Shown one piece after another: positions 29-10,471 of a stretch of DNA of 14,106 bases; the stretch's first letter is position 1, and each line of letters starts with the position of its first letter. Both the position numbers and the translations under genes were made by a program. The DNA is from a virus. Its lineage: Duplodnaviria; Heunggongvirae; Uroviricota; Caudoviricetes. The notes below the pieces were generated by a model, which saw only the letters and a list, made by a program, of their open reading frames with translations, was not told the origin of the DNA and searched no databases. The stretch lies in IMG/VR virus record IMGVR_UViG_2563366844_000002, positions 1-14,106 of that record, one strand, 5' to 3'.

Positions 29-80
29 TAACCCGCAAGCCATTCAAAATAACCCGCAACCACCCCCAAATAACCCGCAA
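29..80. repeat. Iteron-like direct repeat cluster, 3 copies of TAACCCGCAA at 21-bp phasing (candidate distal replication or regulatory site)
   Basis: TAACCCGCAA occurs at 29-38, 50-59 and 71-80, each start exactly 21 bp apart. The same 10-mer is the repeat unit of the iteron cluster at 7903-8029. The plus-strand ORF 1..441 translating this region looks like a repeat artefact. Confidence 0.7.
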
Positions 81-530
81 ACACATCAGGAAAATGGGGC
101 CAGTGATGCCACCGATACCCTATATTTGGGTATCGCGAGTAAGCCCCAAAATCTGGGTGTTACTCTTACTACCCAAACTACGGGTAGTTTCCGTATTTTC
201 ATGGTCGAGTTGCAAATCTGCAACTCACCCACCCGCCAACCCATTTTTGGGCCGTCGGGAATATCAACAAATTAGCACAGAAATAACTCAGGCAGATACA
301 AAACTCAACTTTGAGCTTTGCTTATTATTCAGTTGGTTAACATCCCTCAAAACTGAGGACTGTACCCAAAGCTATTTTTATAGCTCCGGCCTCAGCAGTT
401 GGCTGTTCCCGAAAATATCAGTCAGTTACGTTAACCGCTAATTTCTGCCTTTGGTGTGAATACTGTCGCTTTAACCTACGGTAATTGTTCTGCCTCGGTG
501 CGTGTCACCGCCGTAACCGCGCCAGTAAAC

Positions 531-564
531 ACCACAGATTCGTGGTTTTCCTGAATATCAGGAA
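531..564 (-). other. Two adjacent short hairpins just 3' of the last gene of the packaging operon (weak terminator candidates)
   Basis: ACCAC-N6-GTGGT at 531-546 and TTCCTGA-ATA-TCAGGAA at 548-564, directly after the stop at 566-568. No strong U-run on the minus strand, so termination function is uncertain. Confidence 0.25.
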
Positions 565-7417: not shown

Positions 7418-7840
7418 CTAAAAGGGTATGTTATCCCCGTATGGATCATCATTCCCCGCCTGTTGCTTAGCCCTATTTAGAGCGTCAGTAGCCTGACCCT
7501 GCTGGCCTTTTTTGCCACTAGGTCGCGCCGTTCTGGCACTGATTACGCTGTCTGCGATAACCTGCCAGCCCTGCCGCGTTTCCCCGTTCTGGCCTGTCCA
7601 CTGGCTTACCTGCATGTTACCCGCCACGCTCACCAGCTCGCCTTTGTGGTGTTTTGCCAGTGCGTCGGCCTGTCTGCCAAACGCCAGGACGGATAACCAC
7701 ATCGTCGCCTGTCCGTCATCTGCCTGATTGCACGGCAGGGGGACCGCCATGCTTGCCATAGCCATTTGTGTGCCCTTGCTGGTGGTCTTTAACTGCGGGT
7801 CAGCCACCAGCCGCCCGTAAGCTGCTATCTGTGCTGTCAT
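7418..7840 (-). CDS. ssb: Single-stranded DNA-binding protein (SSB-like OB fold)
   Basis: 140 aa; the N-terminal pattern (AAYGRLVADPQLK ... WLSVLAFGRQADALAKHHKGELVSVAGNMQVSQWTGQNGETRQGWQVIADSV) parallels the bacterial SSB OB fold. C-terminal DDPYGDNIPF resembles the conserved acidic D-I-P-F tail. Confidence 0.75.
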   Translation of the reverse strand: MTAQIAAYGRLVADPQLKTTSKGTQMAMASMAVPLPCNQADDGQATMWLSVLAFGRQADALAKHHKGELVSVAGNMQVSQWTGQNGETRQGWQVIADSVISARTARPSGKKGQQGQATDALNRAKQQAGNDDPYGDNIPF

Positions 7841-7902
7841 GCTGTCTGTTCTCCGGTTTTAACGTTGATAGTTACGCTTGTTTACACCCTTACGGTGAAA
7901 TT

Positions 7903-8029
7903 CTGCGGGTTATAATCGCACTTTTGCGGGTTATAACTGCCGTTTTGCGGGTTACGTGCGGGTTATTGATTTCCTTTTTATTCATACAGTTAATTCACTT
8001 ACACACAGGATAACCCGCATAACCCGCAA
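7903..8029. repeat. Origin-like iteron cluster: 4 direct repeats, AT-rich spacer, 2 inverted repeats of TTGCGGGTTA
   Basis: Copies at 7903-7912, 7924-7933 and 7945-7954 (21-bp spacing) and 7956-7965, then a 44-bp AT-rich stretch (7966-8009), then inverted copies TAACCCGCA(T) at 8011-8020 and TAACCCGCAA at 8020-8029. Lies immediately 3' of the primase gene. Confidence 0.75.
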
Positions 8030-8051
8030 CTTTTCACCTCACACAGGGGAG

Positions 8052-10175
8052 TTAATCTTCTGCCTCAGGCTGGAACATCATCACGTAAAAAACATGCTGC
8101 TTACCCCCAATTTTGCCGAGCGCCTTTTTCTTGTAACGGCGATCGTTACCCGCTTCCAGCATTCCGGCAGCACTCAACGCGCGGGCAAAGTGGGACGGGT
8201 TAAATCCCTGTGCGATCTCCCCCTCAAACACATGAGGAAACGTGTAAAAACGGAACTCATCATCTTCATTTCTGATACTCCCCTTTCTGTATCCGGCAAG
8301 GTCTTTAATCGGTAAATCACGTTCATCACTGTTTGGGTAAGGAAGGTATCGACTGAACCCGAACGACGACAAAAACGCCTCAGCCTGTTCAACCATCTGT
8401 TTAAATTCCCTGTTACCCGTGCCGAACTCCTTCACCCAGGCATTAAAGTTATGCTGTATTGCGTCCCGGCATTCCTGCGCGGCCCAGCCAGTTACATGAC
8501 CGGAAAGCACAAGCGCAGCCTCCAGTATCGCGAAACGTTCCCCCACGCGGTGGACCTGCTCGCCGTAGCTCTCCGGTATCAGGTTGCGCCACCGTTCGCG
8601 GCATTCCCTTACCGTATCCTTTGCCTCCTGCTGGTGGTCTGCCAGCCATTTAACCCATTCACGACCCGCCGCCCCGTGATTTTCTGTCCAGGCATCTTTT
8701 AACGCGTCTGCGTGCGCCTTTCCGGTGCTGTATTCGTGAAATTGCGTGGCTTTTTCCATCGGAACGTTAAGCAGGCGGACAAGCTGCCCCGCTTTGACTT
8801 TTATCCCCTCCGTTTTGAGGAATGTCTCAACGTCCATTTCTCCGGTGCTGATTGCCACCGTGCGCCAGTGTTTTATCTCCCGGTTGCCGCCGTCCTTCGC
8901 CCCCTGTAATTTCCCGGAGCCGTTAAACAACGTATAGGCTGACGTGGACACCTCCCGCGCGTTTCCGGCCTGACCTATTTCATCCAGGGGTAACAGCCCG
9001 TCGTTGTGTGCCTCTGCCTCGTTGGCGATACCTAACGCCGTTCCGTACCAGGTAAGCCGTTGTGCGTCCGGCTCTCCCCATAAACTTGATGCGATGTTCT
9101 GCGTGGTGGTTTTCCCTGCCGATGACTGTTCGAAAAGATGTACCCCGAAGCCGTCAGCACCAACAAGGCCAATCAAAGGTGCTGACAGTGACGTGGCAAC
9201 ACCCAGCATCATGGACGGATTGCCACCAGCCAGCCGCGCCACGCTGTCACGCCAGCCCTCCGCCGTACCCGCAACCGAATAGCCATTAACAGCGGCACTT
9301 TTTCCGGTAAACAGGATCGGTTTTTCAGAATCACCAATGATTGAACCGTCCGGCATGATGTACGCGCCAAAATGCCAGCCTGTTGTTGTGCTTAGCTGCC
9401 ATTCCTCATGGCTTCCGCTTAACTGCATCCAGTCAGCCAGGATAGCCCTGTATTTGCCATTTGTTGTCACGTTCAGCCCGTGATCTTTAAGCAACCGCCA
9501 GCCGTCACGGTCGCCAATGCCACCACACGGGATCGCCATTGTGATGACTTCATGGTTTGCTAATTTTTTCCAGCGCATCACGCGGTAATGTTCTTTACCG
9601 ATCGTCCCCGTTCCCAGTAGTTCAAGCGGAGAACATAACCACGTCTCAGGCCGGATAATTTCGCCTGACTGCTTATCCACTTTGGGCGTTACCCAGAAAA
9701 CACCATCGACGCGACTTTCAACGCGGGGCTTTAATTCATCATCCTGATAGCATGGCTCTTTTTTCTTTACAGGCAGTTCAACTACCTTTTTCTTTTCCGC
9801 CAGCTCTGCCCGTTCACGTTCCAGATATTCACGCCAGTTCTCCCGTTTCTGGCTGTGCATTCCTTCAGGGTAATAATCAGCATCCCTGACACCTGCCGCT
9901 GCCAGTTTCTGCCCGATGGTATTAACAACCCCCGGACGCAATAACCCCGCCTGATAGAGACGCACGCGATAGCGCCCGTCCGGTACGATTTGCAGCTTAT
10001 CCAGTTCGGATAACTGCTGCTCACCAAGCCACACAGGAGGCACGTTATCGCCAGCCAGTCGCCCGTCCTGTTCCTGCCACTGCTTCGCATGTGCCCACGC
10101 ATCACTACCCGCAAAAATGATGACTTCCGTCATTTTGTCACGCGGCTGGTGTTTTAAATTTGGCGCTTTTTTCAT
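8052..10175 (-). CDS. Replication protein, primase/helicase-like with P-loop NTPase (Pri-Rep-like)
   Basis: About 707 aa from the ATG at 10175-10173 (preceded by GGAGAGAG). Walker A-like motif SSAGKTT in the central region and an N-terminal region that looks toprim/primase-like. ATGA overlap with the upstream 99-aa ORF. Confidence 0.75.
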   Translation of the reverse strand: MKKAPNLKHQPRDKMTEVIIFAGSDAWAHAKQWQEQDGRLAGDNVPPVWLGEQQLSELDKLQIVPDGRYRVRLYQAGLLRPGVVNTIGQKLAAAGVRDADYYPEGMHSQKRENWREYLERERAELAEKKKVVELPVKKKEPCYQDDELKPRVESRVDGVFWVTPKVDKQSGEIIRPETWLCSPLELLGTGTIGKEHYRVMRWKKLANHEVITMAIPCGGIGDRDGWRLLKDHGLNVTTNGKYRAILADWMQLSGSHEEWQLSTTTGWHFGAYIMPDGSIIGDSEKPILFTGKSAAVNGYSVAGTAEGWRDSVARLAGGNPSMMLGVATSLSAPLIGLVGADGFGVHLFEQSSAGKTTTQNIASSLWGEPDAQRLTWYGTALGIANEAEAHNDGLLPLDEIGQAGNAREVSTSAYTLFNGSGKLQGAKDGGNREIKHWRTVAISTGEMDVETFLKTEGIKVKAGQLVRLLNVPMEKATQFHEYSTGKAHADALKDAWTENHGAAGREWVKWLADHQQEAKDTVRECRERWRNLIPESYGEQVHRVGERFAILEAALVLSGHVTGWAAQECRDAIQHNFNAWVKEFGTGNREFKQMVEQAEAFLSSFGFSRYLPYPNSDERDLPIKDLAGYRKGSIRNEDDEFRFYTFPHVFEGEIAQGFNPSHFARALSAAGMLEAGNDRRYKKKALGKIGGKQHVFYVMMFQPEAED

Positions 10176-10471
10176 TTCTGCTCTCTCCACGCGGCAATCA
10201 TGTTTTTCAGTTCCTGTAGTTTTTTATCAACATCCATACATGACACATGGTTATTTCTGGAAAGCGGGATTTCCCGCCGGAATCTGCAAATAAAGATCTC
10301 CACGTTCAGCGAACTATGAAATGAATAGCCATCACGAATAAAATACACACGGTCAAACATCAGTCCTTTTACCGTTACTCTGTTACCGTTCTTATCCAGA
10401 TAAATAGCGCCGGGGATAATTTTGGGGTGTGCATAACCGCTGGCAGTCAAGCCAGATAAATATGTTCTCAT
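10172..10471 (-). CDS. Hypothetical 99-aa basic protein (AT-rich gene)
   Basis: ATG at 10471-10469 with GGGGA upstream. Stop overlaps the primase start (ATGA). Local GC is visibly lower than flanking genes. No family recognised. Confidence 0.55.
   Translation of the reverse strand: MRTYLSGLTASGYAHPKIIPGAIYLDKNGNRVTVKGLMFDRVYFIRDGYSFHSSLNVEIFICRFRREIPLSRNNHVSCMDVDKKLQELKNMIAAWREQK

What the first reader, a model, noticed from the sequence alone, without database searches (positions are those of the whole stretch)
7903..8029. Origin of replication inferred from iteron architecture immediately 3' of the primase gene
Four direct copies of TTGCGGGTTA (three at exact 21-bp phasing, a fourth 11 bp on), a 44-bp AT-rich stretch, then two inverted copies form the classic iteron plus DNA-unwinding-element layout. 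In PICI/SaPI-type elements the ori typically lies just downstream of the pri/rep gene.
Basis: partly seen in the sequence, partly recalled or inferred. Interest (0 to 1): 0.5.

Follow-up and report, generated by a model that had tools for sequence, protein, structure and literature searches.

The report
Replication origin of an E. coli phage satellite
The repeats are real and are very probably the replication origin, or its replication-gene-proximal half, of a capsid-forming phage satellite island of E. coli. It is an expected kind of element, but it has a partner repeat cluster 7.9 kb away and a clear protein–DNA specificity signature.

Summary
Six exact copies of TGCGGGTTA lie at 7904-8028: four on one strand, spaced 21, 21 and 11 bp, then a 45-bp spacer that is 71% AT, then two abutting inverted copies. 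About 0.1 exact copies are expected by chance in the window.

The cluster starts 23 nt after the stop codon of a 712-aa protein. This protein is a DUF927 helicase-initiator homologous to SaPIbov1 Rep (PDB 8tch, E 1.8e-15). It is not a demonstrable primase. Its N-terminus has only a TOPRIM-like fold and appears to lack the catalytic acidic motifs.

In 73 related loci across Enterobacterales the same layout recurs almost base for base, with at least 17 different repeat sequences. Repeat class tracks Rep residues 676-700. A natural recombinant swaps exactly the Rep C-terminal domain plus the intergenic region.

This fits the published SaPI/PICI origin definition, so the origin reading is supported. 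It is a new member of a known kind.

It abuts the first in the prototype EcCIEDL933. Here it sits 7.9 kb away at the island end (window 29-79, cut by the window edge). Nothing was tested experimentally.

The parts
7904..7965 (+). Phased iteron group of module A. TGCGGGTTA at 7904, 7925, 7946 and 7957, spaced 21, 21 and 11 bp, so on about one face of the helix.
   Evidence: The same 11/21(/21) pattern is found in most of 73 related loci.
7966..8010 (.). AT-rich spacer, the presumed DNA-unwinding element. It is 45 bp with GC 0.29. It contains TTACACACA (7999-8007), one mismatch from the DnaA-box consensus TTATNCACA.
   Evidence: composition and stability; the spacer has a median of 45 bp and mean GC 0.21 across 73 loci; exact DnaA boxes at the same place in EDL933, L084 and L085 only.
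8011..8028 (-). Tandem iteron pair of module A. Two abutting copies at 9-bp spacing in the opposite orientation, beginning 23 nt after the rep stop codon.
   Evidence: tandem spacing is 9 bp in 99 of 106 cases, and the first iteron starts a median of 25 nt after the stop.
7841..8051 (.). The whole rep-ssb intergenic region. It behaves as one exchangeable block together with the Rep C-terminal domain.
   Evidence: Window versus L004 DNA identity is 90-96% in the rep core, about 40-50% from Rep residue ~600 through this region, and back to 80-96% exactly at the ssb start. No gene is annotated here in RefSeq relatives. No sigma-70-like promoter or terminator is found.
8052..10190 (-). rep: a 712-aa DUF927 helicase-initiator related to SaPIbov1 Rep and SCCmec Cch.
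   Evidence: Pfam DUF927 8e-47. PDB 8tch (SaPIbov1 Rep) E 1.8e-15 and 5dgk (Cch) 2e-3 to 4e-5. NCBIfam Cch1 2e-10, below its cut-off.
8055..8393 (-). Rep C-terminal domain (residues ~600-712), the presumed iteron-recognition domain. The specificity-covarying segment, residues 676-700, is encoded at 8091-8165.
   Evidence: Pfam HTH_56 'Cch helix turn helix' E 0.0015, below its cut-off. Covariation. Mosaic boundary.
9786..10160 (-). Rep N-terminal domain (residues ~11-135). It has a TOPRIM-like alpha/beta fold and differs or is replaced in many relatives.
29..79 (-). Phased iteron group of the distal module B. TGCGGGTTA at 29, 50 and 71, at 21-bp spacing. The rest of the module lies left of the window.
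   Evidence: The near-identical relative L001 shows the full module: an AT-rich spacer, three tandem copies, then a TTTTGTATATATATATATACGAAAA palindrome.
7418..7840 (-). ssb, a single-strand DNA-binding protein gene directly downstream of module A (context).
   Evidence: Pfam SSB 1.2e-16.

Best explanation
Window 7904-8028 is the Rep-recognised origin module of a SaPIbov1-type replicon carried by a capsid-forming PICI of E. coli.

The DUF927 protein encoded just upstream is a self-loading hexameric helicase-initiator. Its C-terminal domain, probably a winged helix, binds the 9-bp iterons. Two abutting sites lie on one side of the 45-bp AT-rich spacer. Four helically phased sites lie on the other side, in the opposite orientation. 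By analogy with SaPI Rep, Rep assemblies on the two sides melt the spacer and load themselves as the replicative helicase. The ssb gene product and host enzymes would then complete replication after the island is induced and excised.

The module has a mirror-image partner, module B, carrying the same iterons and ending in a TA-rich palindrome. In the prototype EcCIEDL933 module B abuts module A. In this island it lies about 7.9 kb away at the integrase-distal end. The complete origin is therefore probably bipartite.

Shown here: the repeat anatomy, Rep homology, conservation of the architecture, and covariation of iterons with the C-terminal domain. Inferred: binding, melting, helicase loading, and the role of module B.
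For: 1. Anatomy and chance statistics.

2. Rep identity: DUF927 8e-47 and SaPIbov1 Rep 8tch E 1.8e-15. The literature states that SaPI Rep uses a C-terminal winged helix to bind 6-12 iterons immediately downstream of rep, with an AT-rich centre and at least two iterons on each side pointing in opposite directions (PMC9371898, PMC7581432). [quoted passage not shown]

3. Architecture: in 73 loci the first iteron starts a median of 25 nt after the rep stop. Tandem spacing is 9 bp in 99 of 106 cases. The spacer has a median of 45 bp and mean GC 0.21 against 0.49 for the loci. The phased pattern is 11/21(/21). At least 17 different iteron sequences are used.

4. Covariation: the between-class minus within-class amino-acid difference is 0.40 for Rep residues 676-700, against 0.04-0.20 in all other 25-residue bins. 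The effect holds in every stratum of core identity.

5. Natural swaps: window versus L004 exchanges exactly the C-terminal domain plus the intergenic region. L034 versus L051 have near-identical cores, all ~12 iterons changed from GAACCAAC to GAGACAAC, and the residue changes clustered in one C-terminal segment.

6. Cassette behaviour: a sister island on the same backbone (L002) has a primase-family rep instead. At the same position it has nine TGTTCACC repeats and no TGCGGGTTA.

7. Module B iterons change together with module A iterons and the C-terminal domain, even when kilobases away.
Against: There is no experimental evidence for this element or for any DUF927-type island in Enterobacterales. 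The only functional test in E. coli PICIs (EcCICFT073) used a different Rep family.

The winged-helix fold of the C-terminal domain is not established. Pfam HTH_56 is below its cut-off, and the AlphaFold2 model of that region is poor.

Covariation shows recognition, not initiation. The repeats could be Rep-binding sites with an auxiliary or regulatory role.

Module B carries an extra, class-independent TA palindrome that could be the real melting site.

Iteron classes were defined from the commonest 8-mers, and the loci are phylogenetically related.
Confidence: 0.8

Rival explanations
1. Module A is an auxiliary cis element, like the second cis-acting replication region of phage P4, and not the start site. 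Rep binds it, but melting and initiation occur at the distal module B, whose tandem iterons abut a TA-rich palindrome. A and B would communicate through Rep-mediated looping.
For: Module B ends in a motif conserved across iteron classes, about TTTTGyTTATATATAcrAAAA, in about 50 loci. Module B iterons co-switch with module A iterons and the C-terminal domain. Split A...B arrangements recur in several genera and in many E. coli genomes. From memory, P4 needs two separated iteron regions.
Against: Module A alone meets the SaPI origin definition and has its own very AT-rich spacer. About 15-19 of 75 loci show no module B within 10 kb. The SaPIbov1 origin, served by a homologous Rep, is a single region downstream of rep (PMC7581432, PMC9371898).
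Confidence: 0.13
2. The repeats are Rep operator sites that regulate transcription, either of rep itself or of the downstream ssb and packaging operon. They are not an origin.
For: They lie between rep and ssb on the transcribed strand. In adjacent A+B loci the TA-rich end of module B sits 10-25 nt before the ribosome-binding site of the next gene.
Against: No sigma-70-like promoter or terminator lies in 7600-8400. The distal module B in this island is followed by no gene. The architecture equals that of experimentally defined SaPI/PICI origins. A helicase-initiator with a dedicated origin-binding domain needs an origin, and no other iteron cluster exists in the island.
Confidence: 0.04
3. The repeats are a packaging (cos/pac) or partition site of the island.
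For: The island encodes its own terminase, HNH protein and capsid. Repeated protein-binding sites occur in cos and par regions.
Against: The same architecture occurs downstream of DUF927 rep genes in 65 of 73 loci that have no detectable capsid or terminase homologue. The repeats covary with Rep, not with terminase. The sister island L002 has identical TerS and TerL proteins (same protein accessions as L001) but entirely different repeats. No ParA or ParB gene is present.
Confidence: 0.02
4. The repeat cluster is a chance or decaying feature with no function.
For: None.
Against: Nine exact copies are found against 0.1 expected. None of 200 shuffles reaches the observed count. The iterons are invariant while spacers diverge among relatives.
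Confidence: 0.01

Closest known systems
SaPIbov1 Rep-ori (Staphylococcus aureus pathogenicity island; Rep structure PDB 8tch)
   Same: The Rep proteins are homologous: DUF927 type, E 1.8e-15 over residues 223-607. The origin lies immediately downstream of the rep stop codon. Two sets of iterons in opposite orientation flank an AT-rich centre. Origin recognition is assigned to the Rep C-terminal domain (PMC9371898, PMC7581432).
   Different: Iterons here are 9-10 bp, not 5-6 bp. The geometry is strict: 9-bp tandem plus 11/21/21 phased. There is a second, mirror-image module with a TA palindrome. No separate primase gene lies upstream. Instead there is an N-terminal TOPRIM-like domain that appears to lack the catalytic motifs. 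The host is Gram-negative.
EcCICFT073 rep-ori and the 'conserved replication origin organisation' of Gram-negative PICIs (Fillol-Salom et al. 2018, PMC6092414)
   Same: It is an E. coli PICI with the same gene order (DUF4222, rep, origin, ssb). Iteron sets flank an AT-rich region 3' of rep. That fragment was shown to support replication of a temperature-sensitive plasmid, and deleting the origin abolished it.
   Different: Its Rep is a 584-aa 'DNA primase family' protein, not DUF927. Its iteron is TGTCTACC. I could not see whether a DUF927-type origin is among those drawn in that paper's Fig. 2a.
EcCIEDL933, the prototype capsid-forming PICI (10.1101/2022.09.08.507074)
   Same: It has the same island type, the same Rep family and the same iteron TGCGGGTTA. 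Its module A is almost identical.
   Different: Modules A and B are adjacent, within 315 bp downstream of rep. In the window's island the ssb and packaging genes lie between them. The paper does not discuss an origin or iterons.
Phage P4 origin with its second cis-acting replication region
   Same: There are two clusters of the same initiator-binding repeat, kilobases apart, one of them next to the replication gene. The sister island L002 carries a primase-family rep with TGTTCACC repeats, which I recall as the P4 iteron.
   Different: The initiator family and the repeats differ. Whether both clusters are needed here is unknown. The P4 details are from memory and were not checked with the tools.
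SCCmec Cch / Cch2 putative origins (PMC7581432)
   Same: A DUF927 or related self-loading helicase has short repeats just downstream of its gene, bound by its C-terminal domain.
   Different: Only three 5-nt repeats are described there. There is no flanked AT-rich spacer architecture, and replication in vivo is not shown.

Membership tests
SaPI/PICI-type replication origin (Rep-ori) | Lies immediately 3' of the rep open reading frame | tested here: met
   The first iteron begins 23 nt after the rep stop codon. The median is 25 nt in 73 relatives.
SaPI/PICI-type replication origin (Rep-ori) | Six to twelve short iterons, with at least two on each side of an AT-rich centre pointing in opposite directions (PMC9371898) | tested here: met
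   Four and two iterons in opposite orientation flank a 45-bp spacer of GC 0.29. The iterons are 9-10 bp, longer than the 5-6 bp of SaPIs.
SaPI/PICI-type replication origin (Rep-ori) | The adjacent gene encodes a self-loading helicase-initiator of a SaPI Rep family | tested here: met
   DUF927 8e-47. SaPIbov1 Rep 8tch E 1.8e-15 / 8.1e-16. A P-loop is present (SSAGKTT). Helicase activity itself is not testable here.
SaPI/PICI-type replication origin (Rep-ori) | The Rep C-terminal domain is a winged helix | tested here: inconclusive
   Pfam HTH_56 (Cch HTH) scores E 0.0015 and 19 bits, below the 26.2 cut-off. A weak collinear match to the Cch C-terminus is seen. The AlphaFold2 model of this region has pLDDT 30-45.
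SaPI/PICI-type replication origin (Rep-ori) | The iterons are specifically recognised by the cognate Rep | tested here: met
   The evidence is indirect, from covariation. Residues 676-700 track iteron class. Natural cassette swaps are seen. Direct binding is not testable here.
SaPI/PICI-type replication origin (Rep-ori) | The rep-ori fragment drives autonomous replication, and deleting the origin abolishes it | not testable with these tools
   Shown only for EcCICFT073, which has a different Rep family, and for SaPIs (PMC6092414).
Capsid-forming PICI (cf-PICI) | Integrase, regulation and replication modules plus its own capsid, protease, portal, connector, HNH, TerS and TerL, with no tail or lysis genes; size 10-18 kb | tested here: met
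   The RefSeq annotation of near-identical L001 is. The prototype EcCIEDL933 is collinear.
P4-type bipartite origin | A P4 alpha-type primase-helicase and TGTTCACC repeats | tested here: not met
   The window has neither. The sister island L002 has both.
P4-type bipartite origin | Two separated cis regions carrying the same initiator-binding repeats, both required | tested here: inconclusive
   Two clusters 7.9 kb apart are present. Whether both are required is not testable here.
Iteron-plasmid origin (RepA/pi/TrfA class) | A RepA-family initiator, 17-22-bp direct iterons, DnaA boxes and a flanking AT-rich region | tested here: not met
   The initiator is a helicase and not RepA-like. The iteron core is 9 bp. 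A DnaA-box-like site is present only with one mismatch, and such boxes are absent in all other iteron classes apart from one match 2 nt after the rep stop in L034.

The most novel reading that the evidence does not exclude
DUF927 replicons of Enterobacterales use a two-module origin. The two mirror-image halves are physically separable. Module A stays at the rep gene. Module B, made of iterons plus a class-independent TA palindrome, can sit up to about 9 kb away at the integrase-distal end of the island, with the cargo and packaging genes inserted between them. Both halves are read by the same short C-terminal segment of Rep and cooperate, for example by Rep-mediated looping. This would be a P4-like long-range origin arrangement in a SaPI-type replicon, and it would come with a readable protein-DNA recognition code spanning at least 17 specificities.
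Probability: 0.3. Interest if true: 0.6.

Novelty: new member of a known kind. Interest (0 to 1): 0.4.

Why it matters
It places the replication origin of a capsid-forming PICI, which the papers describing these satellites do not discuss. It ties that origin to the structurally characterised SaPIbov1 Rep family.

The family survey gives a natural set of at least 17 matched pairs of initiator C-terminal domain and iteron. It also includes recombinants that differ almost only in that pair. This is ready material for working out how these self-loading helicases read their origins, and for building mutually compatible, orthogonal replicons.

The separable second module raises a testable question. 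Do these small replicons need one or two Rep-binding modules? And is the junction between the modules a preferred insertion point for cargo?

Tried and rejected
- The full-length AlphaFold2 model from 16 sequences was poor outside the N-terminal domain (mean pLDDT 47). The Foldseek search on it was meaningless, with no hit at E<=0.001. The winged-helix fold of the C-terminal domain therefore could not be confirmed.
- The promoter and terminator scan of 7600-8400 found nothing.
- Rfam found nothing in the window.
- No tRNA gene is in the window. The tRNA-Ile attachment site lies about 700 bp left of the window in relatives.
- A DnaA box as a general origin feature was rejected. Exact boxes at that position in the spacer occur only in three E. 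coli relatives of the same iteron class.
- The + strand ORFs 7768-8013 and 7956-8315 that overlap the repeats were treated as spurious. RefSeq relatives annotate nothing there, and the sequence is replaced wholesale between close relatives.
- The packaging-site and partition-site readings were rejected because the repeats follow the rep gene, not the terminase.
- The cf-PICI papers were searched for an origin description and none was found.

Full report
**What is in the sequence.** The window is a capsid-forming phage-inducible chromosomal island (cf-PICI) of E. coli, with all its genes on the minus strand. In order these are an integrase, regulators, a 712-aa replication protein (8052-10190), ssb (7418-7840), then HK97-type capsid, protease, portal, connector, HNH, TerS and TerL. 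The closest RefSeq relative, L001, is 97.9% identical over 95% of the window and sits next to a tRNA-Ile gene.

The finding lies in the 211-bp gap between the rep stop codon and the ssb start codon. TGCGGGTTA occurs exactly at 7904, 7925, 7946 and 7957 on the + strand, spaced 21, 21 and 11 bp. It occurs exactly at 8011 and 8020 on the - strand, as two abutting copies. The 45 bp between the groups (7966-8010) have GC 0.29 against 0.50 for the window, and they contain one of the least stable 30-mers of the window, at the 99.6th percentile. About 0.1 exact copies are expected by chance and nine are present. No shuffle out of 200 reaches the observed count at one mismatch or fewer.

**The neighbouring gene is not a demonstrable primase.** It is a helicase-initiator of the SaPIbov1 Rep type. 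Pfam finds only DUF927 (8e-47, residues 173-440). The best solved relative is 8tch, the SaPIbov1 'initiation of replication protein with helicase activity' (E 1.8e-15 over residues 223-607). Next is the SCCmec helicase Cch, 5dgk. The last 150 residues give a sub-threshold match to the Cch helix-turn-helix domain (E 0.0015).

**Comparison with the published definition.** For SaPIs, the Rep C-terminal winged helix binds 6-12 iterons located immediately downstream of rep. An AT-rich region lies near the centre, with at least two iterons on each side pointing in opposite directions. Two hexamers are thought to load on either side (PMC9371898, PMC7581432). [quoted passage not shown] They showed that the EcCICFT073 rep-ori segment replicates a temperature-sensitive plasmid, and that an ori mutant does not (PMC6092414). 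The window's cluster meets every sequence-level criterion.

EcCICFT073 itself has a different Rep, of the primase family, and the iteron TGTCTACC. The functional precedent is therefore for the architecture and not for this protein family. The cf-PICI papers do not mention an origin.

**Comparative test 1: the cassette behaves as a unit.** A sister island on the same backbone and at the same tRNA-Ile site (L002) encodes TerS and TerL proteins identical to those of L001, the window's closest relative. It carries a primase-family rep instead. In the same position it has nine TGTTCACC repeats and no TGCGGGTTA.

**Comparative test 2: the architecture is conserved while the sequence changes.** I collected 80 DUF927-rep loci from different Enterobacterales species and added the window and EcCIEDL933. 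In 73 of them the 185 bp after the rep stop show the same plan:
- The first iteron starts a median of 25 nt after the stop.
- Two or three tandem iterons follow at 9-bp spacing (99 of 106 spacings).
- The spacer has a median of 45 bp and mean GC 0.21, against 0.49 for the loci.
- Opposite-strand iterons then follow at 11, 21 and often 21 bp.

At least 17 different iteron sequences fill this plan. They include TAACCCGCA (the window), TAACCCGT, TAACCCAC, TGAACCAACA, TGAGACAACA, TGAACCGAC, TGGGATAAG, TGGGACAAG, TGGTACAAC and TGACACACT. Only 8 of the 73 loci have capsid and terminase homologues. The module therefore belongs to the replicon and not to the packaging system.

**Comparative test 3: the repeats covary with one short segment of Rep.** Across 25-residue bins, the excess of between-class over within-class amino-acid differences is 0.40 for residues 676-700 and 0.04-0.20 everywhere else. 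The alignment shows class-specific versions of this segment. Examples are RYKKKALGKIGGKQHVFYV for TAACCCnn, GRGYQRKSPRIDGRQINVYV for TGAACCAACA, and GRGYQGRV-REDGRQIRVY for TGAGACAACA. The effect holds in every stratum of core identity: 0.70-0.91 identity for same-class pairs against 0.38-0.62 for different-class pairs.

Two natural recombinants make the point directly:
- **Window versus E. albertii L004.** DNA identity is 90-96% across the rep core. It falls to about 40-50% from Rep residue ~600 through the whole intergenic region. It returns to 80-96% exactly at the ssb start codon. The iteron changes from TAACCCGCA to TGGGACAAG.
- **L034 versus L051.** The cores are near-identical. All ~12 iterons switch from GAACCAAC to GAGACAAC, and the protein differences cluster in that same C-terminal segment.

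This is strong indirect evidence that the C-terminal domain reads these repeats. It is not evidence of initiation.

Three more exact copies lie at window 29, 50 and 71 on the - strand at 21-bp spacing. In L001 the cluster continues left of the window edge with an AT-rich spacer, three tandem copies on the + strand, and then TTTTGTATATATATATATACGAAAA. This module B is the mirror image of the finding, module A.

In EcCIEDL933 modules A and B are adjacent within 315 bp downstream of rep. The same holds in about 40 of the surveyed loci. In the window's island, ssb and the whole packaging module lie between them. The split arrangement, with the same relative orientation, recurs in other E. coli islands and in several other genera:
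- L084 and L085 (E. coli), where module B sits within a few hundred bp of the integrase-distal end.
- Rosenbergiella, Serratia, Chimaeribacter and Pantoea.
- E. albertii L004. There the module B iterons have switched class together with module A and the C-terminal domain, while the flank beyond them stays nearly identical to the window type.

Module B ends in a motif that does not depend on iteron class, roughly TTTTGyTTATATATAcrAAAA, in about 50 loci. Relatives with another rep type match the window only from position 109 and lack module B.

**Most likely mechanism.** Rep binds the iterons through its C-terminal domain on both sides of the AT-rich spacer, melts it, and loads itself as the replicative helicase. 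This follows the proposal for its SaPIbov1 homologue. Module B is a second Rep-binding unit of the same origin. I give 0.8 to 'Rep-recognised origin module'.

The main rival (0.13) is that module A is an auxiliary element and that initiation occurs at module B with its TA palindrome, as I recall for phage P4. Module A's own AT-rich spacer, its fit to the SaPI definition, and the 15-19 loci with no detectable module B argue against this.

A purely regulatory role (0.04) is unlikely. No promoter-like site is present, and the distal module B precedes no gene. Packaging or partition roles (0.02) are contradicted.

**Limits.** Nothing here is experimental. Iteron classes were derived from the commonest 8-mers. 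The loci are related, although stratification and the two recombinants mitigate this. The C-terminal fold is unconfirmed. P4 details come from memory.

**Verdict.** The origin is a new member of a known kind. The gene label and the extent of the element are corrected. The separable second module is the part worth following up.

Noticed in passing
window 29-79 (continues left of window position 1; full copy in L001 3905-4079): A second, mirror-image iteron module (module B) with the same TGCGGGTTA repeats lies 7.9 kb from the finding, at the integrase-distal end of the island. The window edge cuts it. In relatives it ends in a TA-rich palindrome (TTTTGTATATATATATATACGAAAA) that is conserved across iteron classes.
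   Followed up: yes
window ~108-228; second copy outside the window (L001 3672-3790 and 4108-4228): A direct repeat of about 120 bp brackets module B in the near-identical relative L001. It is rich in short palindromes (GATACCC..GGGTATC, TACCCAAACTACGGGTA, GTTGCAAATCTGCAAC). Sister islands without module B, such as L002, have a single copy. Its function is unknown. It may be a recombination scar from acquiring module B, or a protein-binding site near the attachment end.
   Followed up: partly
window 7999-8007: TTACACACA in the AT-rich spacer is one mismatch from the DnaA-box consensus TTATNCACA. Three E. coli relatives of the same iteron class (EDL933, L084, L085) have exact boxes at the same place. 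At this position other iteron classes have none; the only other exact match is in L034, 2 nt after the rep stop.
   Followed up: partly
window 7894-7913 and 8019-8038: The outermost iterons on each side extend into a 20-nt inverted repeat (GGTGAAATTCTGCGGGTTAT / ATAACCCGCAACTTTTCACC, 85% complementary). The GGTGAAA flank is also present in L084 and L085. The outer Rep sites may therefore be longer than 9 bp.
   Followed up: no
window 9786-10190 (Rep residues 1-135): The N-terminal domain of Rep has a confident TOPRIM-like fold but no family match and apparently no catalytic acidic motifs. Most of the relatives fetched match the window Rep only from residue ~90-151 onward, so this domain differs or is replaced in them. 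It varies independently of the helicase core (window versus L004).
   Followed up: partly
L002 12000-12275 (sister island NZ_CP059907) and L087 9997-10284 (EcCICFT073): Islands on the same backbone with primase-family rep genes carry quite different iteron sets at the same position: TGTTCACC x9 and TGTCTACC-type. At least three rep-ori cassettes therefore circulate among otherwise near-identical E. coli islands.
   Followed up: partly
L084 1-718 and 16647-17675 (NZ_CP091700): A cf-PICI with the same iteron class is inserted inside the terminase large-subunit gene of another prophage-like element and splits it in two.
   Followed up: no
window 240-560 and L003 340-780: The non-coding stretch between the last packaging-side gene and the island end holds several related units, for example ...ATATCAaCnAGTTACCGC... 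followed by short palindromes such as CCTCAAAnTGAGG. They may be protein-binding sites. I only saw them by eye.
   Followed up: no
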